Both the position numbers and the translations under genes were made by a program. Shown in pieces: positions 2,759-64,000 of a DNA stretch of 64,000 bases. The notes below the pieces were generated by a model, which saw only the letters and a list, made by a program, of their open reading frames with translations, ran no database searches and was not told the DNA's origin. The first letter of the stretch is position 1. Each line of letters starts with the position of its first letter. This DNA comes from an uncultured Myxococcales bacterium (lineage in GTDB: Bacteria > Myxococcota_A > UBA9042). Location of the stretch: NCBI GenBank assembly GCA_937910235.1, contig CALENB010000330.1, forward strand, positions 2,030 to 66,029, given 5' to 3'.

Positions 2759-3628
2759 CTAGCGACACCTATCGTGTGGTGGGCAGCGCAACCGCACGTG
2801 CACGTGGTCGGCGTGGCCGCTGGCGTGGCGGATGATGCCGCGGCGCGCGGTGCGACCCGCCGGAAACTGAAAGATGCGGTCCAACGTCGGCTGTGGCACG
2901 CCTTCGCGCTCCAGATGACGGTGGAAGCGAACCTGAAGCTCGTAGTCCATGAACATGTACTGAACTTGGCCTGACGAGAGCAACGCGCCCAACAAGGCCC
3001 AGGTCTTGACCACGTCGAGGTTGCCCGCGTGCATGGGCCGAAACTGCGACAGGCGGCGGTTGTCGCTGGCGAAATAGCCGATGTCGATGTCGCGCCCGCT
3101 CTGATGGCTGCCATGGCCTCGGAGCTTGCCGCCGTTGCGCTTGGAGAGCGCGCCGATCACGACGGGCGCGGTGCGCGGGTACAGCGTCGCCACCGCGCGC
3201 GTGGCCCACTGCAGGAGCGCTACGGTCTCCTCTGTGGCCCATCCGGCCGAGTTACGTCGCACATAGCCGGCGCCCTTGGCTGGCAGCAGGCAGCCGTGGT
3301 CGAGGCGTCCGTCCGTGGCTGCGCCGATCGAGCGCGTCGGCCCTGTGGGTGGCGCCGCGCATCGCGCCGGCTGCATCTTTGGGCCGCGGGAGTCGGTCGC
3401 TGCCTTGGCGCGGTGCGGCGTCTCCACTGCGTCGGCGTCCACCGATGTGCGCGCCCTATCTGGTGAGTCGGGCTCGTCCGGCGCGAACACCATGTGGTCC
3501 ACGTACCTCGGCGGGCGCACCTGCGGACCCGGACCGCAGGCCGACGCCGCAGCCACAAGCGCCGTCACCGCGACGCCAACCCAGGCACGCCGAGGCGCCG
3601 GTGGCCGAGGCCGCGCGGAGATCGTCAA
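2759..3628 (-). CDS. mepA: penicillin-insensitive murein endopeptidase (MepA-like, peptidase M74)
   Basis: Signal peptide, and motif HGSHQSGRDIDIGYF characteristic of MepA metal site. Start ATG overlaps ptsI stop (ATGA). Confidence 0.6.
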   Translation of the reverse strand: MTISARPRPPAPRRAWVGVAVTALVAAASACGPGPQVRPPRYVDHMVFAPDEPDSPDRARTSVDADAVETPHRAKAATDSRGPKMQPARCAAPPTGPTRSIGAATDGRLDHGCLLPAKGAGYVRRNSAGWATEETVALLQWATRAVATLYPRTAPVVIGALSKRNGGKLRGHGSHQSGRDIDIGYFASDNRRLSQFRPMHAGNLDVVKTWALLGALLSSGQVQYMFMDYELQVRFHRHLEREGVPQPTLDRIFQFPAGRTARRGIIRHASGHADHVHVRLRCPPHDRCR

Positions 3629-5238
3629 CAGCCGTCGCCACCAAGCCGGTCCATGGCGCGGTACACCGGCGCGGCGAGGCGGGGCGCGAGCGACAGCTCA
3701 CGGAGCCCGGTGCCAAAGAGCACCTCCGTGGCGACCGGATCGGACGCCAACTCGCCGCACAGGCTCACGTCGATGCCGGCCCGCGCGCCCGCTTGCACCA
3801 CCAGCGTGATCGCGCGCAGCAGCGCGTCGTGTGGCAGAGGCGTCGGGGGGCCGCGCCTAGCGCTGTCGCGGCGGCGCGCGAGCAGGAGCGCGTTCAAGTC
3901 GTTGCTGCCGATGGCCAGGAAGTCCGCGTGCGTGACCAGCTCGTCGAGCATGAACAGCAACGCCGGCACCTCGACCATCGCGCCGATCTCGATTGCCTTG
4001 GTGATCCCGAAGTGCCGCTGCGCCGCAGCGACCTTCGCGCGCACCCAGTTCAGCTCGGCGGGGTCCGTCACGAAAGGGACCAGGATGCGTAGATGGCCTG
4101 CCGGCGCCGCCCGCACCAGCGCTCGAATCTGGGTCTCTAGCAGCTCTGGCCGCTCGAAACGCAGTCGAATCCCACGACACTCGCCAAGGCCGCGCAACGC
4201 CTCTGGGAGCTCCTCGTCCTCAAAAGGGCCGGACAGATCGACCAACCGGATCGCAACGGTCTCCGGGGCAAAGTCGGCTAGGACCGCGGAGAACTTCTGC
4301 GTGAGCTCGTCTTCCGTCGGGAGGTCCGGTCGGCCGAGGTAGAGAAAAAACGTCCGCCACAAGCCGACCCCGGTGGTGCCGTGCGCGCGCGCCCACTCCG
4401 CGTCCAAGCGCAGGTCCAGATTCGCGCGTAGGCGCATCGCCGGCGCGCCCAGGCGGGTGTGCGGCGGCGTGCCGGTCGCGCCGAGCGTCGCCGCGGGTTG
4501 GCGTGCGCCTTCGCTGAGCAACTCGACCTCGCCAGAGTCCCCGTCCAGCGCGATGAGTTGGTCGGTGGCGACTGCGCGGCGCACGCCATGTAGGCCCGTG
4601 GCGGCCGGCAATCCGGCAGATCGGCACAGCACCGCGACGTGGGACGTGAGCGAGTCCGTCTCAAGCACAATCCCGGCCGCGCCGCGTTGGATGAGCGTGA
4701 TCACGTCGCTGATCGTCAGGGAGTCGGCGAGGACAATGTCGCCGCGGTCGCACTCGAGGTAGCGCCACGGCGACTGCCCGATCAGCTGCGCCATCAGCTC
4801 GCCGCAGAGCCCTTCGACGTCGCGAAACCAGCCTCTAAACTCCGGTCGGGTGAGGGCGGCGAAATGTGAACGCAGATCGTCGAGCGTGCGCTCGAGCGCC
4901 CACTCCGCGAGCAGCCCCTCGTCCCGTACGCGTGCCATCGCCGCGCCAATGAACAGCGGATCGGTCAGCACCGCGTGATGGCTCGCGACGAGGGCCTGCA
5001 CCAGATCGCCCGCATCCGTGATGCCACCGGCCATGAGCAGGTTCTCAGACTGGCGCAGCCCGCCATCGACAACATCGATGGCCTCCTGCAGCCGCGCCAC
5101 CTCAGCTTGGCGCTTGGCCGCGCCCATAACGGTCCGTTGCGCAACCCTGCGTTGGCGAGAGCGCACGACATGCGCGGGCCCCACCGCTCGACCTGGGGCG
5201 CTTGGCGTGCCTAGCCAGCGCTCAGCCACGGGCACCAC
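3625..5238 (-). CDS. ptsI: phosphoenolpyruvate-protein phosphotransferase (PTS enzyme I)
   Basis: Phospho-histidine region LETDSLTSHVAVLCRSAGLPAATG. PEP-utilizing C-terminal AIGSNDL motif. ~537 aa. Confidence 0.85.
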   Translation of the reverse strand: MVPVAERWLGTPSAPGRAVGPAHVVRSRQRRVAQRTVMGAAKRQAEVARLQEAIDVVDGGLRQSENLLMAGGITDAGDLVQALVASHHAVLTDPLFIGAAMARVRDEGLLAEWALERTLDDLRSHFAALTRPEFRGWFRDVEGLCGELMAQLIGQSPWRYLECDRGDIVLADSLTISDVITLIQRGAAGIVLETDSLTSHVAVLCRSAGLPAATGLHGVRRAVATDQLIALDGDSGEVELLSEGARQPAATLGATGTPPHTRLGAPAMRLRANLDLRLDAEWARAHGTTGVGLWRTFFLYLGRPDLPTEDELTQKFSAVLADFAPETVAIRLVDLSGPFEDEELPEALRGLGECRGIRLRFERPELLETQIRALVRAAPAGHLRILVPFVTDPAELNWVRAKVAAAQRHFGITKAIEIGAMVEVPALLFMLDELVTHADFLAIGSNDLNALLLARRRDSARRGPPTPLPHDALLRAITLVVQAGARAGIDVSLCGELASDPVATEVLFGTGLRELSLAPRLAAPVYRAMDRLGGDGC

Positions 5239-5527
5239 GACTCTCCCACGACCACTGCTCGTCGAACCCCTGCGCGATCAGCTCCGCGAGCGCGTCCAGC
5301 GCCTCGTCGGCGCCTGGGCCACGCGCCACCAGGACCAGGTCAGTCCCCTGCACGGCCTCCAACATGAGCAGGGACAGGATGCTGCGGCCGTCGACCTCTT
5401 CGCCGCGGCAGCGGACCCGAACTCTGGCGGAGAACTGACGCGCGAGCGCGACGAAGCGCCCCGCAGGCCTCGCGTGCATGCCGCGCGGGTTCACGATGCG
5501 CGCGCGGCGCTCGACGGTCTCGGTCAC
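5222..5527 (-). CDS. ptsH: phosphocarrier protein HPr
   Basis: VNPRGMHARPAGRFV (His15 region) and SILSLLML (Ser46 region), typical HPr. Overlaps ptsI start. Confidence 0.8.
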   Translation of the reverse strand: MTETVERRARIVNPRGMHARPAGRFVALARQFSARVRVRCRGEEVDGRSILSLLMLEAVQGTDLVLVARGPGADEALDALAELIAQGFDEQWSWESRGARG

Positions 5528-6453
5528 CGCGGGCCCCGTCCAGGGGCGGCATCTGCGCCGTCGTTAGTCCGAGGAGCGGCCTCGTCCTCGGCTAGCTCTG
5601 GCTTGTCGCGATGAGCGACGGTGACGACGGCGATCCGCAGGGTCCGAATGTGCCCCGCCAGGGCCTCTGCCAGCGCCACGGAGCGGTGTTGACCGCCGGT
5701 GCAGCCAATCGCGACCGTCACCAAGGCGCGCCCTTCAGCGCGATGCGACGGCAACGTATGATCGAGCAGCTTGATCATGTGCTGCAGATAGACGTCGCCG
5801 CCTGCCGACTCCATCACGTAATCACGCACCTCACGGCTCAACCCGGTGTGCGGTCGCAGCGCCGGAACAAAGTGCGGGTTGGCCAAGCAGCGGACATCAA
5901 AAACATAGTCCGAATCTCGCGGCAGCCCGTGTTTGAAGCCGAAGCTGCGCACCGCCACCCGCATCGTCCCAACGTCATCGTCACCACCGAAAAGCTCACC
6001 GATACGGGCTTTCAGCTCGTGCACGTTGAGTTCACTGGTGTCGATCATGAGGGCTGTACGCTCCCTCAGCATGAGCATGCGTCCGCGCTCTGTTCGGATC
6101 GCGTCGGCGATCGAGCTCGCCGCCAGCACGGGGTGTTTACGCCGCGTCTCTGCAAAACGTCGGATCAAGACGTCGTCGGCGCAGTCCACGAACAAGAACT
6201 CAACATGTACGCCAGCGGCGTCGAGCGTGTGCAGCGCAGCGTCCATGTCGTCGAGGAACGCGCCAGCTCGCACGTCGATCCCGACCGCCAGCGGCTGGGG
6301 TTCCGTGCGGTCGCGCATGGCGTCGTACAGATCTGCGAGCAGCTGTGCGGGTAGGTTGTCGACACAGAACCAACCGAGATCCTCGAGGGCCCGCAGGCAG
6401 GTCGACCGGCCCGAGCCGCTGATCCCAGTTACTACTAGCAGGCGGCCCTTCAT
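5524..6453 (-). CDS. rapZ: RNase adapter protein RapZ (YhbJ)
   Basis: N-terminal P-loop LLVVTGISGSGRSTCLRALEDLGWFCVDNLP, diagnostic of RapZ. ATGA coupling with ptsH and ptsN. Confidence 0.85.
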   Translation of the reverse strand: MKGRLLVVTGISGSGRSTCLRALEDLGWFCVDNLPAQLLADLYDAMRDRTEPQPLAVGIDVRAGAFLDDMDAALHTLDAAGVHVEFLFVDCADDVLIRRFAETRRKHPVLAASSIADAIRTERGRMLMLRERTALMIDTSELNVHELKARIGELFGGDDDVGTMRVAVRSFGFKHGLPRDSDYVFDVRCLANPHFVPALRPHTGLSREVRDYVMESAGGDVYLQHMIKLLDHTLPSHRAEGRALVTVAIGCTGGQHRSVALAEALAGHIRTLRIAVVTVAHRDKPELAEDEAAPRTNDGADAAPGRGPR

Positions 6454-6932
6454 TCGAGCTCCGTGCGTTCCGGTCGGGGTGGGGTTCCGGTCGCCTCTAG
6501 AATCACGCCGTAGGCCTCCTGCGACGTCTTGGCGGCGAGGAGCGCGCTCCGGACCTCTGGCGAGCGTACCAAACGAGCGACCCGGGCGAGAAGACGTAAG
6601 TGCAGCGCCTGCGCATCCGCCGGCGCGAGGACGGCAAACACGAGCGCTACTGGCAGATCGTCCACGGCGTCGAATGGAACGGGGCGCGCCATGCGCAGCA
6701 GCGCGACGCGCGGCGCCGTGATGAGCGTCGTCGATGCGTGCGGGATCGCGACGCCTTCGCCGACGCCCGTCGAAGCCACCTTCTCGCGCGCAACCAACAG
6801 CGCCTCGATCGCGCCGGCCGGCAGCGCGTCGCCGAGCACGTTCGCCGCGTGGCCGAGCACCGCGGCTTTGTCGGGCGCTGGCACGTCGAGAAAGATGTCT
6901 TGTGACCGCAGGAAGCGCGTCAACTCAACCAC
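6450..6932 (-). CDS. ptsN: PTS IIA-like nitrogen regulatory protein PtsN (EIIA-Ntr)
   Basis: EIIA-Fru/Ntr fold motifs (IPHAST region GVAIPHAS). Position immediately downstream of rpoN. Confidence 0.75.
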   Translation of the reverse strand: MVELTRFLRSQDIFLDVPAPDKAAVLGHAANVLGDALPAGAIEALLVAREKVASTGVGEGVAIPHASTTLITAPRVALLRMARPVPFDAVDDLPVALVFAVLAPADAQALHLRLLARVARLVRSPEVRSALLAAKTSQEAYGVILEATGTPPRPERTELE

Positions 6933-6985
6933 GCCGACCTCCTCTCGTCATCACCGCGCTGGGGCGGGTCGCGCGCTGGGTCTGC

Positions 6986-8698
6986 CTAAAACATCGCCCG
7001 GCGCCGCGATGAGGACGCAATGTTCATCGCCTCGCGGTATTTGGCAACCGTCCGCCGCGCGATGTTCATGCGCTTCTCGGGCAACACGCCAGCAAGTTCA
7101 GCGTCTTCGGCATCGAGCCGCGACAGCAACTTGCCTCGGTCCCACTTGCCCTGCAGCACCTCGGCGATCTCCTGATCGCTCAGAGGCGACTTGACGATCT
7201 CATGACCGATGAGCTTGCCGATCGCGAACTTGACCGCCTCGCTCGCCATGTCGTCGCCGGTGCGCGTCTCGATGCGACTGTTGAAGAAGTACTTCAGCTC
7301 GAAGATGCCCTGGGGCGTGTGCACGTACTTTGACGTGGTCACGCGCGACACAGTCGATTCGTGCAGCCCCACATCGTCGGCGACCTGGCGCAGCACCAAG
7401 GGCCGCAGCTGCGACACGCCGTGCTCCAAGAACGGCCGCTGAAACCGCATGATCGACTCCGTCACCTTCTGAATCGTGTTTTGCCGCTGCTGGATGCTGC
7501 GGATCATCCACACCGCCTGGCGCATCTTCTCTTGCAGGTACTCTTTGGCCTGCTTGTCGCCGTCTTGTCCGCCAGCGAGCGCGTGCTTGTAGAAGTTGGA
7601 TACCCGCAGCTTCGGCAGCCCGTTGTCGTTCACCACGACGGTGTAATCCGCGCCGACCTTGTGCACATACACATCCGGGGTGATGTACCGCGCGTTGCCG
7701 CCGCTGTAGCGACGCCCGGGCCGCGGCTCCAACGTCTGCAGCAGCTCGATCAGCCGCTTGACCTCTTCCGCTTTGAGCTTGAGATCCCGGAGTATTGGCG
7801 CGTTCTTGCGCTTCTCAAGGTTGCCCAGGTGGCGATCGATGAGCCGGTGCAGCATCGGCTCATCCGGGTGCTCAAGCGTCGCCTGCGTCAGCAGACACTC
7901 CCGCAGATCGCGGCTCGCGACCCCCACTGGTTCGCAGCGCTGCAGCACCTTCAGCACCTCGTGCACGTCGTCGATTGACACCGCATGCGCCGCCGCGATG
8001 GCCCGGGTCGAGTTCCCCGGCACGACCACCGGCTTCATCCCGCGGGCTTCGCCTTCCTCGGACCACTCCGTCAGCTCGTCGTCGGTGAGCCACAGCAGTG
8101 ACAGGGTGCCGCGCAGATCTTCGGTCTCGATGCCGCGTTGCTCGGCCTTCCGTTTCAACAGCCGGCGCCCGGCATCCGACCCGCCTCCCAGCTCGAGTCG
8201 GCTCGGTCGGAAGTAGCCGTCGTCATCCAAATTGCCGATCACGTCCTCGGCGATCTCGACGAGCGCGCTGTCCATCCCCGCGAGCTGCTCAAGCAACACC
8301 TCGGACAAGGTCGCATCGCGCGTCAGGGTCTGGTCGAGGGTGGGCAACTCATCGTCGCGAGAGGCGTAGCTTCCGGTCGAGGCGCTCGGCCCGCTCGCGA
8401 GGTCGGCAAAATACTCCTGCCAATCGATCTCCTGCCGCTCTTTCTCCGCGCCTTCGCGCGAGTCGAGGCTCGTCACTTCGCCTTCGCCGCCCGTCACGCT
8501 CGTCGACGACGAGGCGCCATCGTGGGTGCCTTGCTCTTCGAGGAGCGGATTCTCGTTCAGCGTCTCCCGAACCTGTTCGACCAACTCAGTGCGCGAGAGC
8601 TGCAGCAAACGGATCGCCTGCTGCAGCTGCTGCGTCATCACGAGGCGCTGCTCGAGGCGCTGCCCGATGTGGAGGTGGAGGCCTTGCTTGAAGTCCAT
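6986..8698 (-). CDS. rpoN: RNA polymerase sigma-54 factor
   Basis: N-terminal LQQAIRLLQLS glutamine-rich activator-interaction region. C-terminal RpoN box ARRTVAKYRE. Confidence 0.95.
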   Translation of the reverse strand: MDFKQGLHLHIGQRLEQRLVMTQQLQQAIRLLQLSRTELVEQVRETLNENPLLEEQGTHDGASSSTSVTGGEGEVTSLDSREGAEKERQEIDWQEYFADLASGPSASTGSYASRDDELPTLDQTLTRDATLSEVLLEQLAGMDSALVEIAEDVIGNLDDDGYFRPSRLELGGGSDAGRRLLKRKAEQRGIETEDLRGTLSLLWLTDDELTEWSEEGEARGMKPVVVPGNSTRAIAAAHAVSIDDVHEVLKVLQRCEPVGVASRDLRECLLTQATLEHPDEPMLHRLIDRHLGNLEKRKNAPILRDLKLKAEEVKRLIELLQTLEPRPGRRYSGGNARYITPDVYVHKVGADYTVVVNDNGLPKLRVSNFYKHALAGGQDGDKQAKEYLQEKMRQAVWMIRSIQQRQNTIQKVTESIMRFQRPFLEHGVSQLRPLVLRQVADDVGLHESTVSRVTTSKYVHTPQGIFELKYFFNSRIETRTGDDMASEAVKFAIGKLIGHEIVKSPLSDQEIAEVLQGKWDRGKLLSRLDAEDAELAGVLPEKRMNIARRTVAKYREAMNIASSSRRRAMF

Positions 8699-8759
8699 AC
8701 GCGCTGTCCTGATGTGTTGTCGCAGCGCCGTCGCGTCAGCGCCCGCTCTCAGGGGACGG

Positions 8760-62335: not shown

Positions 62336-63190
62336 ATGCATCGTTTTTCGCCCCCGTCTCTCCTCTTGTCCGCCGCGCTGCTCCTTGCGACGTGTGGCGC
62401 GCTCGTCGCCTGCAGCGCGGAGCCCCAGTCTCGTGGTTTGCCGATGGCCAGCTTGATCGGGCCGGACGCGCCGCCGCTGACGCGCGTGGCGCACCACAGC
62501 CACGGTGACGAACCAGCGTCTGTCGATCCTCGCGGTGCGGCGGCCACGGCGTCGACCGCGCCGCCGCTGCCACCCGCGGTCGATCTTGTGATCTCTGAGG
62601 TGATGACCGACCCCCTCCTCGTCGATGACGTGGTTGGGGAGTACGTCGAGATCATCCATCTAGGCGCAGAAACGGCGTCTTTGGCTGGGGCGACGCTGGT
62701 GCTGCCGGACGGGCGGGCGGTGTCGCTGCTGCGCCCACGGCTGATTGAGAAACCCTCGCGTCGCCATGCCGCGCCGGCGCCCCTGCCGCCAGATCTGTCC
62801 GGGCCTGATGCGGTCGTCCAGCCGGGGGAGGTGCTCGTGGTGCGTTCGTCACGCAGTCGTCGTCTGCGGCTCCCCAACCGGGCCGGGCGGCTGGAGCTGC
62901 GTCGGGCGGGCGTGTTGCTGGACGTCGCCCAGTGGGCGGGTCGATGGCCGTGGCCGCGCCACAAGGCGGGGAAGGCGCTCTGCCGTGTGGCGCCGGAGCG
63001 TGACGGTGCCACCGGTCGGGCGTGGCGGCGTTGCAGCGCGCCGTTACGTGGTGTGGAGCGGGGTAGTCCCGGTGTGGTTGCGGCGCGGTGTGCGTGGCTC
63101 AAGGCGCGGAATGTTCGGGTCGATAGCTGCGCTGTGGCGGACAGCGGCGGACCACGGCGACGGCTCGCGGCGCGGCGGCGGCGCTTGTAG
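62336..63190 (+). CDS. lamin-tail-domain (LTD)-like lipoprotein
   Basis: Lipoprotein signal LLLATCGALVAC. LTD-like block LVISEVMTDP...VGEYVEIIHLG...TLVLPDG. Arg-rich C-terminal third is less certain. Confidence 0.45.
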   Translation: MHRFSPPSLLLSAALLLATCGALVACSAEPQSRGLPMASLIGPDAPPLTRVAHHSHGDEPASVDPRGAAATASTAPPLPPAVDLVISEVMTDPLLVDDVVGEYVEIIHLGAETASLAGATLVLPDGRAVSLLRPRLIEKPSRRHAAPAPLPPDLSGPDAVVQPGEVLVVRSSRSRRLRLPNRAGRLELRRAGVLLDVAQWAGRWPWPRHKAGKALCRVAPERDGATGRAWRRCSAPLRGVERGSPGVVAARCAWLKARNVRVDSCAVADSGGPRRRLAARRRRL

Positions 63191-63303
63191 CGATGAGGCG
63201 GTGGGTCAGCGCGGCGTGGGAGGTCTTGGCGGGACCAGTCGCGCGATGGAGAGTGATGCGCGTAGGCTGGTGAGTGTGATTCTGATGCAAGGAGGATGAG
63301 TCG

Positions 63304-63795
63304 ATGCACGAGGTGCGCCCGCTAGATCGCGATGAATCAGCGGAGATTGTGGCGGTCGCAGACGGCATGCGCGCCACGTTGGTGGAGGTGCTGGGGTTGG
63401 CGCGTGGCGTGGCGTTGTACGACCACGATTGGCTGGTGGCGCGTGTGCGCTGGCATCTGGATCCCGAGCGCTGCGACGGCGAGGTCTTCGTTGTGACGAC
63501 GGCGGAAGGCGCTGTTGTCGGCCACACGATCGTGCGCGTCGAGCGAGATGGCGAGGACACGCCGTTCGGGCTCTTTTCGACGACATGGGTGCAGCCTGAC
63601 CATCGGCGTCTCGGGCTCGCCTCGGCGCTGCTGCAGGCGGGTGAGGCGTGGATGGCCGCGCGTGGGTTGGCGGAAGTGGTGACGAACACGGCGGCGACGA
63701 ACGCGCCGTTGATTCGGATGTTTGAGGGGCGGGGGTATGGGGTCGCGCTGGCGGTTGGGGAGATGGTGCAGCTGCGAAGAAAGGGGCAGGGCTGA
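63304..63795 (+). CDS. GNAT family N-acetyltransferase
   Basis: Acetyl-CoA binding block QPDHRRLGLASALLQAGEAWMAARG (R/Q-x-x-G-x-G/A). Confidence 0.75.
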   Translation: MHEVRPLDRDESAEIVAVADGMRATLVEVLGLARGVALYDHDWLVARVRWHLDPERCDGEVFVVTTAEGAVVGHTIVRVERDGEDTPFGLFSTTWVQPDHRRLGLASALLQAGEAWMAARGLAEVVTNTAATNAPLIRMFEGRGYGVALAVGEMVQLRRKGQG

Positions 63796-63810
63796 GACGC
63801 TCGCCGTCGG

Positions 63811-63840
63811 CAAACAGAAAACGCCCCGAAGGGCGCTTTC
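63811..63840. terminator. hairpin terminator, strong in the minus direction (T-tract ttttctgttt)
   Basis: cgccc-cgaa-gggcg stem-loop. On the minus strand it is followed by a U-rich run, so it terminates the tRNA-like element. Weaker for GNAT (+). Confidence 0.5.
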
Positions 63841-63857
63841 AAAAATCAAATAATGTC

Positions 63858-63912
63858 TGGTGGCTGGAGACGGACTTGAACCGTCGACCTAGCGATTATG
63901 AGTCGCTCGTAA
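63858..63912 (-). other. tRNA-Met(CAT)-like 3' half: anticodon arm, variable loop, T-arm, acceptor 3' strand and CCA, without a canonical 5' half
   Basis: Minus strand reads agcga-cTCATaa-tcgct / aggtc / gacgg-ttcaagt-ccgtc / tccagcc-a-cca. The upstream 25 nt do not form a D-arm or acceptor 5' strand. Confidence 0.45.
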
Positions 63913-63960
63913 ACTCGTTTCAGGGGGGTCCAGCACGAGCCGGAGCAGGTGTGTAACCTT

Positions 63961-63991
63961 CCATAAATGCGAAGTTTTTAGGCATTTATGG
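63961..63991. repeat. perfect 10-bp inverted repeat (ccataaatgc N11 gcatttatgg) in lower-GC DNA
   Basis: Directly visible. Sits beyond the tRNA-like fragment where GC drops sharply. Confidence 0.6.
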
Positions 63992-64000
63992 CCCGGGTGT

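What the first reader, a model, noticed from the sequence alone, without database searches (positions are those of the whole stretch)
63858..64000. tRNA-Met 3'-half remnant plus inverted repeat in lower-GC DNA: probable att boundary of an integrated element beyond the window
On the minus strand, 63858..63912 encodes a canonical anticodon arm (anticodon CAT), variable loop, T-arm (GGTTCAAGTCC), acceptor 3' strand and CCA, followed by a good terminator.
The 25 nt that should supply the D-arm and acceptor 5' strand do not pair (best acceptor 6/7 with a 1-72 mismatch, no D stem).
A 3' tRNA segment retaining its native downstream flank is exactly what an attR site looks like after integrase-mediated insertion into a tRNA gene.
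Immediately beyond it (63913 onward) GC falls, and there is a perfect 10-bp inverted repeat ccataaatgc-N11-gcatttatgg. This could be a candidate recombinase/excisionase or operator site.
Basis: partly seen in the sequence, partly recalled or inferred. Interest (0 to 1): 0.6.

Follow-up and report, generated by a model that had tools for sequence, protein, structure and literature searches.

The report
Displaced tRNA-Met fragment marking an insertion junction
The last 143 bases of the window hold the 3' two-thirds of a tRNA-Met gene joined to unrelated DNA, the usual scar left when a mobile element inserts into a tRNA gene, but the element itself and its integrase could not be seen, so this is an ordinary, only partly verifiable case.

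Summary
Window 63858-63909 (- strand) is the exact 3' 52 nt of a 77-nt tRNA-Met(CAT) gene: last D-stem base, anticodon arm, variable loop, T arm, acceptor 3' strand and CCA. Its native terminator hairpin follows. No tRNA finder accepts it as a gene.

Eleven loci cut from eight contigs of the same uncultured Myxococcales-like population match the window at 99.95-100% up to base 63909. Six contigs then continue with the intact tRNA, rpsI, rplM and metK. This is the empty site. The window instead continues with 91 nt of unrelated, unique DNA of 52% GC that carries the perfect 10-bp inverted repeat.

The break lies 1-2 nt 5' of the anticodon stem. That is where the identity block of anticodon-centred tRNA-targeting tyrosine integrases is expected to begin.

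Not shown: the element, an integrase, or a partner attL. Two alternative tRNA-downstream junctions in sibling contigs (L018/L019, L014) could be attL sites. They could equally be native flanks of sister lineages joined at the conserved tRNA. The source contig probably ends about at base 64000. This is a known kind of feature and of low interest.

The parts
63858..63909 (-). Displaced 3' fragment (52 nt) of tRNA-Met(CAT). It comprises the last D-stem base, G26, anticodon arm AGCGA-CTCATAA-TCGCT, variable loop AGGTC, T arm GACGG-TTCAAGT-CCGTC, acceptor 3' strand TCCAGCC, discriminator A and CCA.
   Evidence: It is 100% identical to positions 26-77 of the intact tRNA in L001-L006 and L012. It is the only copy in the window. 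It is not called as a tRNA and scores 25 bits against a 29-bit threshold.
63817..63840 (-). Native terminator hairpin of the tRNA transcription unit. It probably also terminates the convergent GNAT gene.
   Evidence: A 10-bp stem with a UUCG loop, followed by a U-rich run. It is identical in all empty-site contigs. A different hairpin followed by a T run sits at the same place in relative L026.
63910..64000 (.). Unrelated 91-nt arm that replaces the tRNA 5' half, the spacer and rpsI. It is the presumed end of an inserted element (the P-arm side of an attR).
   Evidence: Homology with 11 sibling loci (eight contigs) stops at 63909. There is no similarity to the host tRNA 5' half or leader: alignment score 13 against a shuffle mean of 12.9. 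There is no other copy in the window or in the fetched loci. GC is 51.6%. It is absent from IMG/VR, the metagenome and GTDB contig collections, and the phage and plasmid collections.
63961..63991 (.). Perfect 10-bp inverted repeat CCATAAATGC-N11-GCATTTATGG inside the foreign arm, 52-82 nt from the breakpoint. Its function is unknown. It may be a protein-binding palindrome or a hairpin.
   Evidence: Reported. Only 7 loci of this type occur in the 64 kb. As an RNA hairpin it folds at -13.5 to -14.9 kcal/mol with no U tract after it on either strand.
63929..63934 (-). GCTGGA, a 6-nt complement to the acceptor 3' strand, offset by 1 nt from where the true acceptor 5' strand would lie. It is probably a chance match.
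   Evidence: Seen in the fold of the 77-nt candidate. My estimate is p of about 0.01 for a 6-of-7 or better match within about 10 offsets. The surrounding sequence shows no homology to the tRNA 5' half.
63304..63795 (+). GNAT acetyltransferase gene. It is the native chromosomal flank on the fragment side and served as the anchor for the empty-site comparison.
   Evidence: An ORF of 163 aa. Pfam families PF00583 and PF13508 are recorded for the identical protein on 17 contigs.

Best explanation
The feature is an attR-type junction. In this lineage the native locus reads rplM-rpsI-tRNA-Met-terminator, with a convergent GNAT gene on the far side.

The proposed mechanism is as follows. A mobile element, either a genomic island or a prophage, carries an attP site that contains a copy of the tRNA from the anticodon stem to the 3' end. 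A tyrosine integrase recombines attP with the tRNA gene, most likely with strand exchange in or near the anticodon loop. The element's copy of the 3' part then completes the tRNA next to rpsI. The original 3' 52 nt are pushed to the far end of the element, still attached to the native terminator and GNAT flank. That far end is what the window shows. The element would begin at 63910 and run beyond the window.

Shown: the fragment, its exact identity to the intact gene, the abrupt loss of homology at the edge of the anticodon stem, and the existence of the unoccupied allele in the same population.

Inferred: that an integrase made the junction, that the element is still present, and that the inverted repeat is an accessory-protein site in the att arm.
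For: 1. The fragment is exact, terminal and in the right configuration. It covers positions 26-77 of the tRNA, reaches the CCA end and keeps the native downstream flank. This is the configuration the Islander signature requires for a 3' fragment (PMC4383910).
2. An empty site exists. Six contigs with an identical GNAT protein and 99.95-100% DNA identity over up to 10.6 kb carry the intact tRNA followed by rpsI-rplM-metK.
3. rplM-rpsI-tRNA-Met synteny is conserved in relatives with 80-91% rpsI identity, so the intact arrangement is ancestral.
4. The break lies 1-2 nt 5' of the anticodon stem. Anticodon-centred attP sites are the most common class (2083 of 3919 islands, PMC4383910). attB sites running from the anticodon stem or loop to the CCA end have been described, including for a tRNA-Met gene (bioRxiv 10.1101/2020.11.02.365908).
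5. The 91-nt arm is unrelated to the host sequence it replaces, is unique, and is lower in GC.
6. Assemblies repeatedly break in or just after this tRNA: L007, L008, L015, L014, L018, L019 and L026. A 141-kb contig is calculated to stop exactly at the base matching 63909. This is expected if the site is polymorphic in the population.
Against: - No integrase, no second full-length tRNA copy and no element genes were seen.
- Nothing beyond base 64000 could be retrieved.
- The source contig probably ends about 91 nt past the break (an inference). The arm could therefore be a short, low-coverage assembly tip.
- The candidate partner junctions, L018/L019 and L014, are ambiguous. A sister species (L039) has a native flank with the same layout of CCG end, its own terminator and tandem repeats. 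That flank runs straight into a homologue of the window's 284-aa gene. Those tails may therefore be native flanks of sister lineages rather than attL sites.
- No arm-type repeat motif is shared between the window arm and those tails.
Confidence: 0.68

Rival explanations
1. The junction is an assembly join rather than a junction in this chromosome. The 91-nt arm would come from a free or plasmid-borne element's attP, or from an attR in a sister genome, that shares the 52-nt tRNA segment. The assembler would have stitched it to this strain's GNAT flank as a short terminal tip. An element targeting this tRNA would still exist, but it would not be integrated behind this window.
For: A 141,308-nt contig of the same population maps so that its first base corresponds to window 63909 (assuming no indels). 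This suggests that the window's contig is a similar contig plus a 91-nt overhang. Other contigs carry short tips of 83-191 nt of alternative sequence after the tRNA. One of those layouts is a native flank in a sister species, which shows that lineages become entangled at this conserved tRNA. No contig in the protein-indexed collection shows GNAT followed by element genes.
Against: The arm lacks any tRNA 5' half, so it cannot be an orthologous tRNA locus from a sister lineage. The other parent of the join would still have to be a tRNA 3' fragment abutting foreign DNA at the anticodon-stem edge, which is itself an att site. The sequencing reads were not available to test this.
Confidence: 0.17
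2. The tRNA was truncated by an event that did not involve an integrase. Candidates are an IS or transposon insertion, a deletion, or an inversion whose breakpoint happened to fall in the tRNA gene. In that case the fragment is simply a broken gene.
For: Only one side of the event is visible. No integrase or restored tRNA copy was seen. The arm carries a perfect inverted repeat, and mobile-element ends often contain such repeats.
Against: A random break within the 77-nt gene has only about a 6% chance of landing within 2 nt of the anticodon-stem edge (my estimate). The arm is not found within 10 kb on the other side of the locus or anywhere in the 64 kb, so a local deletion and a multi-copy IS are both unlikely. 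Losing a tRNA-Met that is conserved in synteny, together with the linkage to the essential rpsI-rplM genes, would probably be deleterious. This last point is an inference, because the tRNA copy number is unknown.
Confidence: 0.1
3. The region encodes a functional but non-canonical tRNA or tRNA-like RNA that lacks a D arm. It would use GCTGGA (63929-63934) as the acceptor 5' strand.
For: A 6-bp acceptor-like helix can form at nearly the right spacing. The chance of such a match is roughly 0.01 by my estimate.
Against: ARAGORN and Rfam reject it. No D stem forms. The folding energy is -20.5 kcal/mol against -30.6 for the intact gene. The same population carries a normal gene at this locus scoring 69 bits. 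D-armless tRNAs are not known in bacteria (general knowledge).
Confidence: 0.01

Closest known systems
tDNA-integrated genomic islands and prophages with an anticodon-centred attachment site (Islander class 'A'; Williams 2002 sublocation scheme, as summarised in PMC4383910)
   Same: A displaced 3' tDNA fragment reaches the CCA end and keeps its native downstream flank. The fragment begins at the anticodon stem. The DNA abutting it is foreign and lower in GC. An unoccupied allele exists in close relatives.
   Different: The cognate full-length tDNA at the other end, the integrase gene and the island's length are all unseen. The host is an uncultured Myxococcales-like bacterium known only from metagenome assemblies.
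Myxophage Mx8 integration, where the integrase gene extends across attP (mentioned in PMC4383910)
   Same: The host belongs to the same broad group (Myxococcota). One reading frame stays open from the window end across the junction into the tRNA fragment (36 codons).
   Different: A 36-codon open frame is not significant, with roughly an 18% chance per frame by my estimate. Its GC3 is unremarkable and it contains a perfect palindrome. No gene with this product is on record. Similarity to an integrase could not be tested. From general knowledge, the Mx8 target is a tRNA-Asp gene, not tRNA-Met.
Partial tRNA gene fragments that can be mis-annotated as tRNA genes in prokaryotic genomes (PMC9897764)
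   Same: It is a non-functional tRNA 3' fragment that resembles a gene by eye and scores near, but below, the tRNA model threshold.
   Different: Here the tRNA finders correctly reject it.

Membership tests
tDNA-integrated island junction (Islander signature, PMC4383910) | A fragment of a tDNA that matches a full-length tDNA of the same organism | tested here: met
   52 of 52 nt are identical to positions 26-77 of the intact tRNA-Met in contigs of the same population.
tDNA-integrated island junction (Islander signature, PMC4383910) | The fragment is an end fragment, not an internal one, and a 3' fragment lies on the downstream side with its native flank | tested here: met
   The fragment runs to the CCA end and is followed by the same terminator and GNAT gene as in the empty-site contigs.
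tDNA-integrated island junction (Islander signature, PMC4383910) | A full-length cognate tDNA in the same replicon, in the same orientation, upstream of the 3' fragment | not testable with these tools
   It would lie beyond base 64000. No sequence beyond the window could be retrieved. No tRNA 5' half occurs anywhere in the window.
tDNA-integrated island junction (Islander signature, PMC4383910) | A tyrosine integrase gene between the tDNA and its fragment | not testable with these tools
   Only 91 nt of the presumed element are available, and no integrase was seen.
tDNA-integrated island junction (Islander signature, PMC4383910) | An interval of 2-200 kb between the tDNA and its fragment | not testable with these tools
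   The other end of the interval was not seen.
tDNA-integrated island junction (Islander signature, PMC4383910) | The crossover lies at a recognised sublocation (anticodon loop, T loop, or T/acceptor junction) | tested here: met
   The identity block starts at linear position 26, 1-2 nt 5' of the anticodon stem. This is the layout expected for the anticodon-centred class. The crossover point itself cannot be mapped.
tDNA-integrated island junction (comparative definition: DNA variably present next to a tDNA across strains) | An unoccupied ('virgin') site in closely related genomes | tested here: met
   L001-L006, L012, L013, L016 and L017 carry the intact tRNA between rpsI and GNAT, and those aligned to the window match it at 99.95-100%.
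Canonical bacterial tRNA gene | A complete cloverleaf (acceptor, D, anticodon and T arms) accepted by tRNA finders | tested here: not met
   ARAGORN reports no genes. Rfam tRNA scores 25 bits against a gathering score of 29, with the D arm deleted. The intact allele scores 69 bits.
IS / transposon insertion | Terminal inverted repeats, a target-site duplication, and the remaining part of the target on the other side | not testable with these tools
   The other end was not seen. No second copy of the arm occurs in the 64 kb or in the fetched loci.

The most novel reading that the evidence does not exclude
The 91-nt arm is the end of an undescribed integrative element of uncultured brackish or marine Myxococcota. 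This rpsI-linked tRNA-Met would then be a population-level hotspot, where several different elements or flanks are exchanged (window arm, L018/L019 tail, L014 hybrid tRNA). A further possibility is an Mx8-like layout in which a gene reads across the att core. The short tandem repeats that recur just after the terminator in four lineages would then be recombination or binding sites rather than chance.
Probability: 0.12. Interest if true: 0.35.

Novelty: new member of a known kind. Interest (0 to 1): 0.2.

Why it matters
The practical value is for annotation. The segment should be recorded as a tRNA gene fragment or att junction, not as a tRNA gene. Base 63909|63910 should be treated as a strain-variable boundary and a likely contig end.

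If the element can be recovered, it would be one of very few integrative elements described for uncultured aquatic Myxococcota. The co-existing empty and occupied alleles would then allow its frequency to be measured in natural samples. The mechanism itself is textbook, so the finding does not open a new question.

Tried and rejected
1. Retrieving what lies beyond base 64000.
- Exact-pattern scans with the 31-nt inverted-repeat region found nothing in IMG/VR, the metagenome contigs or the GTDB genomes.
- blastn of the arm against the phage and plasmid collections found nothing.
- Look-ups of the GNAT protein with flanks of 10 kb, 1.5 kb and 0.6 kb showed only empty-site contigs or contigs that end in or just after the tRNA.
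- A look-up of the 36-aa ORF that crosses the junction found nothing on record.

2. Finding the partner attL through rpsI.
- The exact rpsI protein (P0001) led to two alternative junctions. In L018/L019 an intact tRNA is followed by unrelated DNA. In L014 a hybrid tRNA carries a compensatory T-stem variant and a CCG end.
- I first read these as attL sites. I then rejected that as proof, because sister species show that such flanks can be native. L039 has a CCG end, its own terminator and tandem repeats, then a 68%-identical homologue of the window's 284-aa protein. The P0005 species also has two alternative flanks.
- The tails of L018 and L014 are absent from IMG/VR, and blastn of the L018 tail against the phage collection found nothing.
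- The 19-aa ORF start in L018 was too short for a protein search.

3. Scanning for the tRNA 3' fragment as an attP.
- No hits in IMG/VR or GTDB.
- The metagenome contigs gave only L019 and an unrelated organism, L020.

4. Testing whether the arm is a decayed tRNA 5' half or leader. It shows no similarity above shuffled controls.

5. Looking for older fragments of this tRNA elsewhere in the window. None were found.

6. Looking for arm-type motifs shared between the window arm and the L018 or L014 tails. None of 8 nt or longer were found.

7. Looking for an integrase C-terminus in the short tails of relatives by six-frame translation. Nothing recognisable was found.

8. Williams 2002 (PMC100330) is not held in the library. 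The sublocation scheme is therefore cited through PMC4383910 and bioRxiv 10.1101/2020.11.02.365908.

Full report
**What is in the sequence**

Read on the minus strand, window 63858-63909 spells CGAGCGACTCATAATCGCTAGGTCGACGGTTCAAGTCCGTCTCCAGCCACCA. This contains:
- a 5-bp anticodon stem (AGCGA/TCGCT) with loop CTCATAA, giving anticodon CAT;
- variable loop AGGTC;
- a T arm (GACGG-TTCAAGT-CCGTC);
- acceptor 3' strand TCCAGCC, discriminator A and CCA.

About 17 nt further downstream lies a 10-bp hairpin with a UUCG loop and a U-rich tail, at 63817-63840. The simple terminator scan did not report it.

ARAGORN finds no tRNA in the whole window. Rfam finds nothing at gathering thresholds. In permissive mode the tRNA model matches 63869-63915 at 25 bits, below the 29-bit cut-off, with the D arm collapsed.

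The perfect inverted repeat CCATAAATGC-N11-GCATTTATGG lies at 63961-63991. Only seven loci in the 64 kb carry a perfect 10-bp repeat with a 3-20 nt spacer, so finding one within 91 nt is not expected by chance. The one correction is that the tRNA-derived block ends at 63909, not 63912.

**The empty site**

The last gene in the window is a 163-aa GNAT acetyltransferase at 63304-63795 on the + strand. A look-up of contigs encoding exactly this protein returned 17 metagenome contigs. Six of them (L001-L006) continue past the GNAT gene with a full 77-nt tRNA-Met, then rpsI, rplM and metK on the same strand.

The window is 99.95-100% identical to the eleven loci (eight contigs) over up to 10.6 kb. 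In every case that reaches far enough, the alignment stops at window base 63909.

The intact gene reads GGCTGGGTAGCTCAGCTGGTTAGAGCGAGCGACTCATAATCGCTAGGTCGACGGTTCAAGTCCGTCTCCAGCCACCA and scores 69 bits with the Rfam tRNA model. The window retains linear positions 26-77, which is everything from one or two bases before the anticodon stem to the CCA end.

The 91 nt that replace the tRNA 5' half, the 51-nt spacer and rpsI have these properties:
- no similarity to the sequence they replace (local alignment score 13 against a shuffle mean of 12.9);
- no other copy in the window or in any fetched locus;
- 51.6% GC against 66.6% for the window.

GC already drops at the end of the GNAT gene, so composition by itself is weak evidence.

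**Context and ancestry**

The exact rpsI protein (P0001) has its nearest named relatives in MAGs labelled Myxococcales. Record names point to aquatic samples: the ALNE18 scaffolds and 'PRJEB22997 aquatic metagenome'.

In relatives with 80-91% rpsI identity the order rplM-rpsI-tRNA-Met is conserved. The anticodon stem and T stem of the tRNA show compensatory changes between lineages. The intact arrangement is therefore ancestral and the tRNA is under selection. The downstream neighbour differs between lineages: GNAT here, a dioxygenase in L027, and a homologue of the window's 284-aa ORF in L039.

**Interpretation**

A terminal 3' tDNA fragment that keeps its native downstream flank and abuts unrelated DNA is half of the standard signature of an island or prophage integrated into a tRNA gene. 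In that signature the island's attP carries a fragment of the tDNA, so integration restores the gene and displaces the original fragment to the far end of the island (PMC4383910).

In the Islander survey, 3760 of 3919 islands had 3' fragments and 2083 had anticodon-centred attP sites (PMC4383910). Recombination sites that extend from the anticodon stem or loop to the CCA end have been described for several tDNAs, including a tRNA-Met gene (bioRxiv 10.1101/2020.11.02.365908).

The break here lies exactly at that structural edge. By my estimate, a random break in a 77-nt gene would land within 2 nt of it only about 6% of the time.

**What could not be shown**

No sequence beyond base 64000 could be obtained.
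- The arm is absent from IMG/VR, the metagenome and GTDB contig collections, and the phage and plasmid collections.
- No contig in the protein-indexed collection shows GNAT followed by element genes.
- The junction-spanning ORF is not on record.

A look-up with the window's rpoN gene found a 141,308-nt contig of the same population. Its coordinates place its first base at window 63909, provided there are no indels over the intervening 52 kb. That assembly stops exactly at the breakpoint. The window's own contig is probably a similar contig plus a 91-nt overhang.

The arm may therefore be a short tip supported by a minority of reads. I cannot exclude that it comes from a free attP or from a sister genome and was joined during assembly. 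Either way, the other parent would still be a tRNA 3' fragment abutting foreign DNA at the anticodon-stem edge, which is an att site of an element that targets this tRNA.

**Candidate partner junctions, and why I do not count them**

The rpsI look-up revealed two other right-hand junctions.
- In L018 and L019, from two separate assemblies, the intact tRNA plus GA is followed by unrelated DNA. This DNA has its own terminator, two TGGCTAGG repeats and the start of an ORF.
- L014 is identical to the reference up to about tRNA position 49. It then has a compensatory T-stem variant (GTGGG/CCCAC), CCG instead of CCA, a near-identical terminator, and two TTGGGGACGGAT repeats. The hybrid still scores 71 bits as a tRNA.

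These look like attL sites, but sister species weaken that reading.
- L039 (91% rpsI identity) has the same T-arm variant, a CCG end, its own terminator and four tandem repeats. It then runs directly into a 68%-identical homologue of the window's 284-aa ORF. That is a native flank.
- The 84%-identity species likewise shows two alternative flanks.

The L014 and L018/L019 tails may therefore be native flanks of sister lineages joined at the conserved tRNA, either by recombination in vivo or by the assembler. They show that the site is heterogeneous. They do not show that an element restored the tRNA.

This explanation cannot account for the window's arm, because the arm replaces half of the tRNA gene.

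**Minor points**

There is no D stem and no surrounding homology, so I treat this as chance (p of about 0.01).
- The inverted repeat folds as a hairpin of -13.5 to -14.9 kcal/mol with no U tract on either strand. It lies 52-82 nt from the core, within the roughly 250-bp span usual for attP (PMC4383910). A protein-binding palindrome is plausible but untested.
- The G1-C72 pair argues against an initiator tRNA. The choice between elongator Met and Ile2(CAU) was not resolved.

**Verdict**

The element, the integrase and the partner site remain unseen, and the arm may be a contig-end tip.

The feature belongs to a well-known kind. Confidence in the att-junction reading is about 0.68, with a further 0.17 or so for the variant in which the junction was created by assembly. 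Interest is low, at 0.2.

Noticed in passing
L039:1080-1200; L033:3560-3610; L014:3095-3118; L018:1094-1114: Just after the terminator that follows the rpsI-linked tRNA-Met, four lineages carry short tandem direct repeats. The repeat sequences differ: a CCCGGCTCTGTTTTT-like unit x4, GGCTTCACT x2, TTGGGGACGGAT x2 and TGGCTAGG x2. In L039 this lies in a native flank, so the repeats are not simply integrase arm sites. Their function is unknown.
   Followed up: partly
L014:2975-3050 and L034, L039 tRNA 3' ends: Some alleles and lineages of this tRNA-Met encode CCG instead of CCA at the 3' end, together with a compensatory T-stem variant (GTGGG/CCCAC instead of GACGG/CCGTC). L014 combines this population's 5' part with that 3' part. 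This could be a recombinant or a chimeric assembly.
   Followed up: partly
window 63304-63795 compared with L039: The GNAT gene lies between the tRNA terminator and the 284-aa ORF in this lineage. It is absent in the 91%-rpsI sister species, where the 284-aa homologue follows the tRNA directly. The region next to the tRNA is therefore variable between species.
   Followed up: partly
L014:1413-1415 (metK): In contig L014 a CAG-to-TAG change truncates the called metK gene to 301 aa from 389 aa. This is either a sequencing or assembly error or a real nonsense variant in an essential gene.
   Followed up: no
L012:2924-2974 (rpsI-tRNA spacer, outside the window): An 11-bp perfect hairpin (CCAGCTCGGCG-TTTT-CGCCGAGCTGG) sits between the rpsI stop codon and the tRNA. 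Hairpins occupy the same position in relatives L026, L033 and L040. It may be a processing or attenuation signal for co-transcription of the tRNA with rplM-rpsI.
   Followed up: no
window 62900-63800: GC skew is strongly positive (0.2-0.39) across the 284-aa ORF and the GNAT gene, much higher than in the preceding 5 kb.
   Followed up: no
window 3600-8700 (- strand): A conserved cluster of rpoN (sigma-54), a PTS EIIA(Ntr)-like gene, rapZ, HPr and ptsI, next to dnaJ, ribosomal protein L25 and peptidyl-tRNA hydrolase (Pfam labels on the identical contig L021). This is ordinary housekeeping context and confirms that the window is chromosomal.
   Followed up: no
window 63895-63923 (- strand): A sigma-70-like promoter match (CTGAAA-17-CATAAT) spans the junction, with its -10 hexamer lying in the anticodon loop. 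It is most likely a chance consensus match.
   Followed up: no
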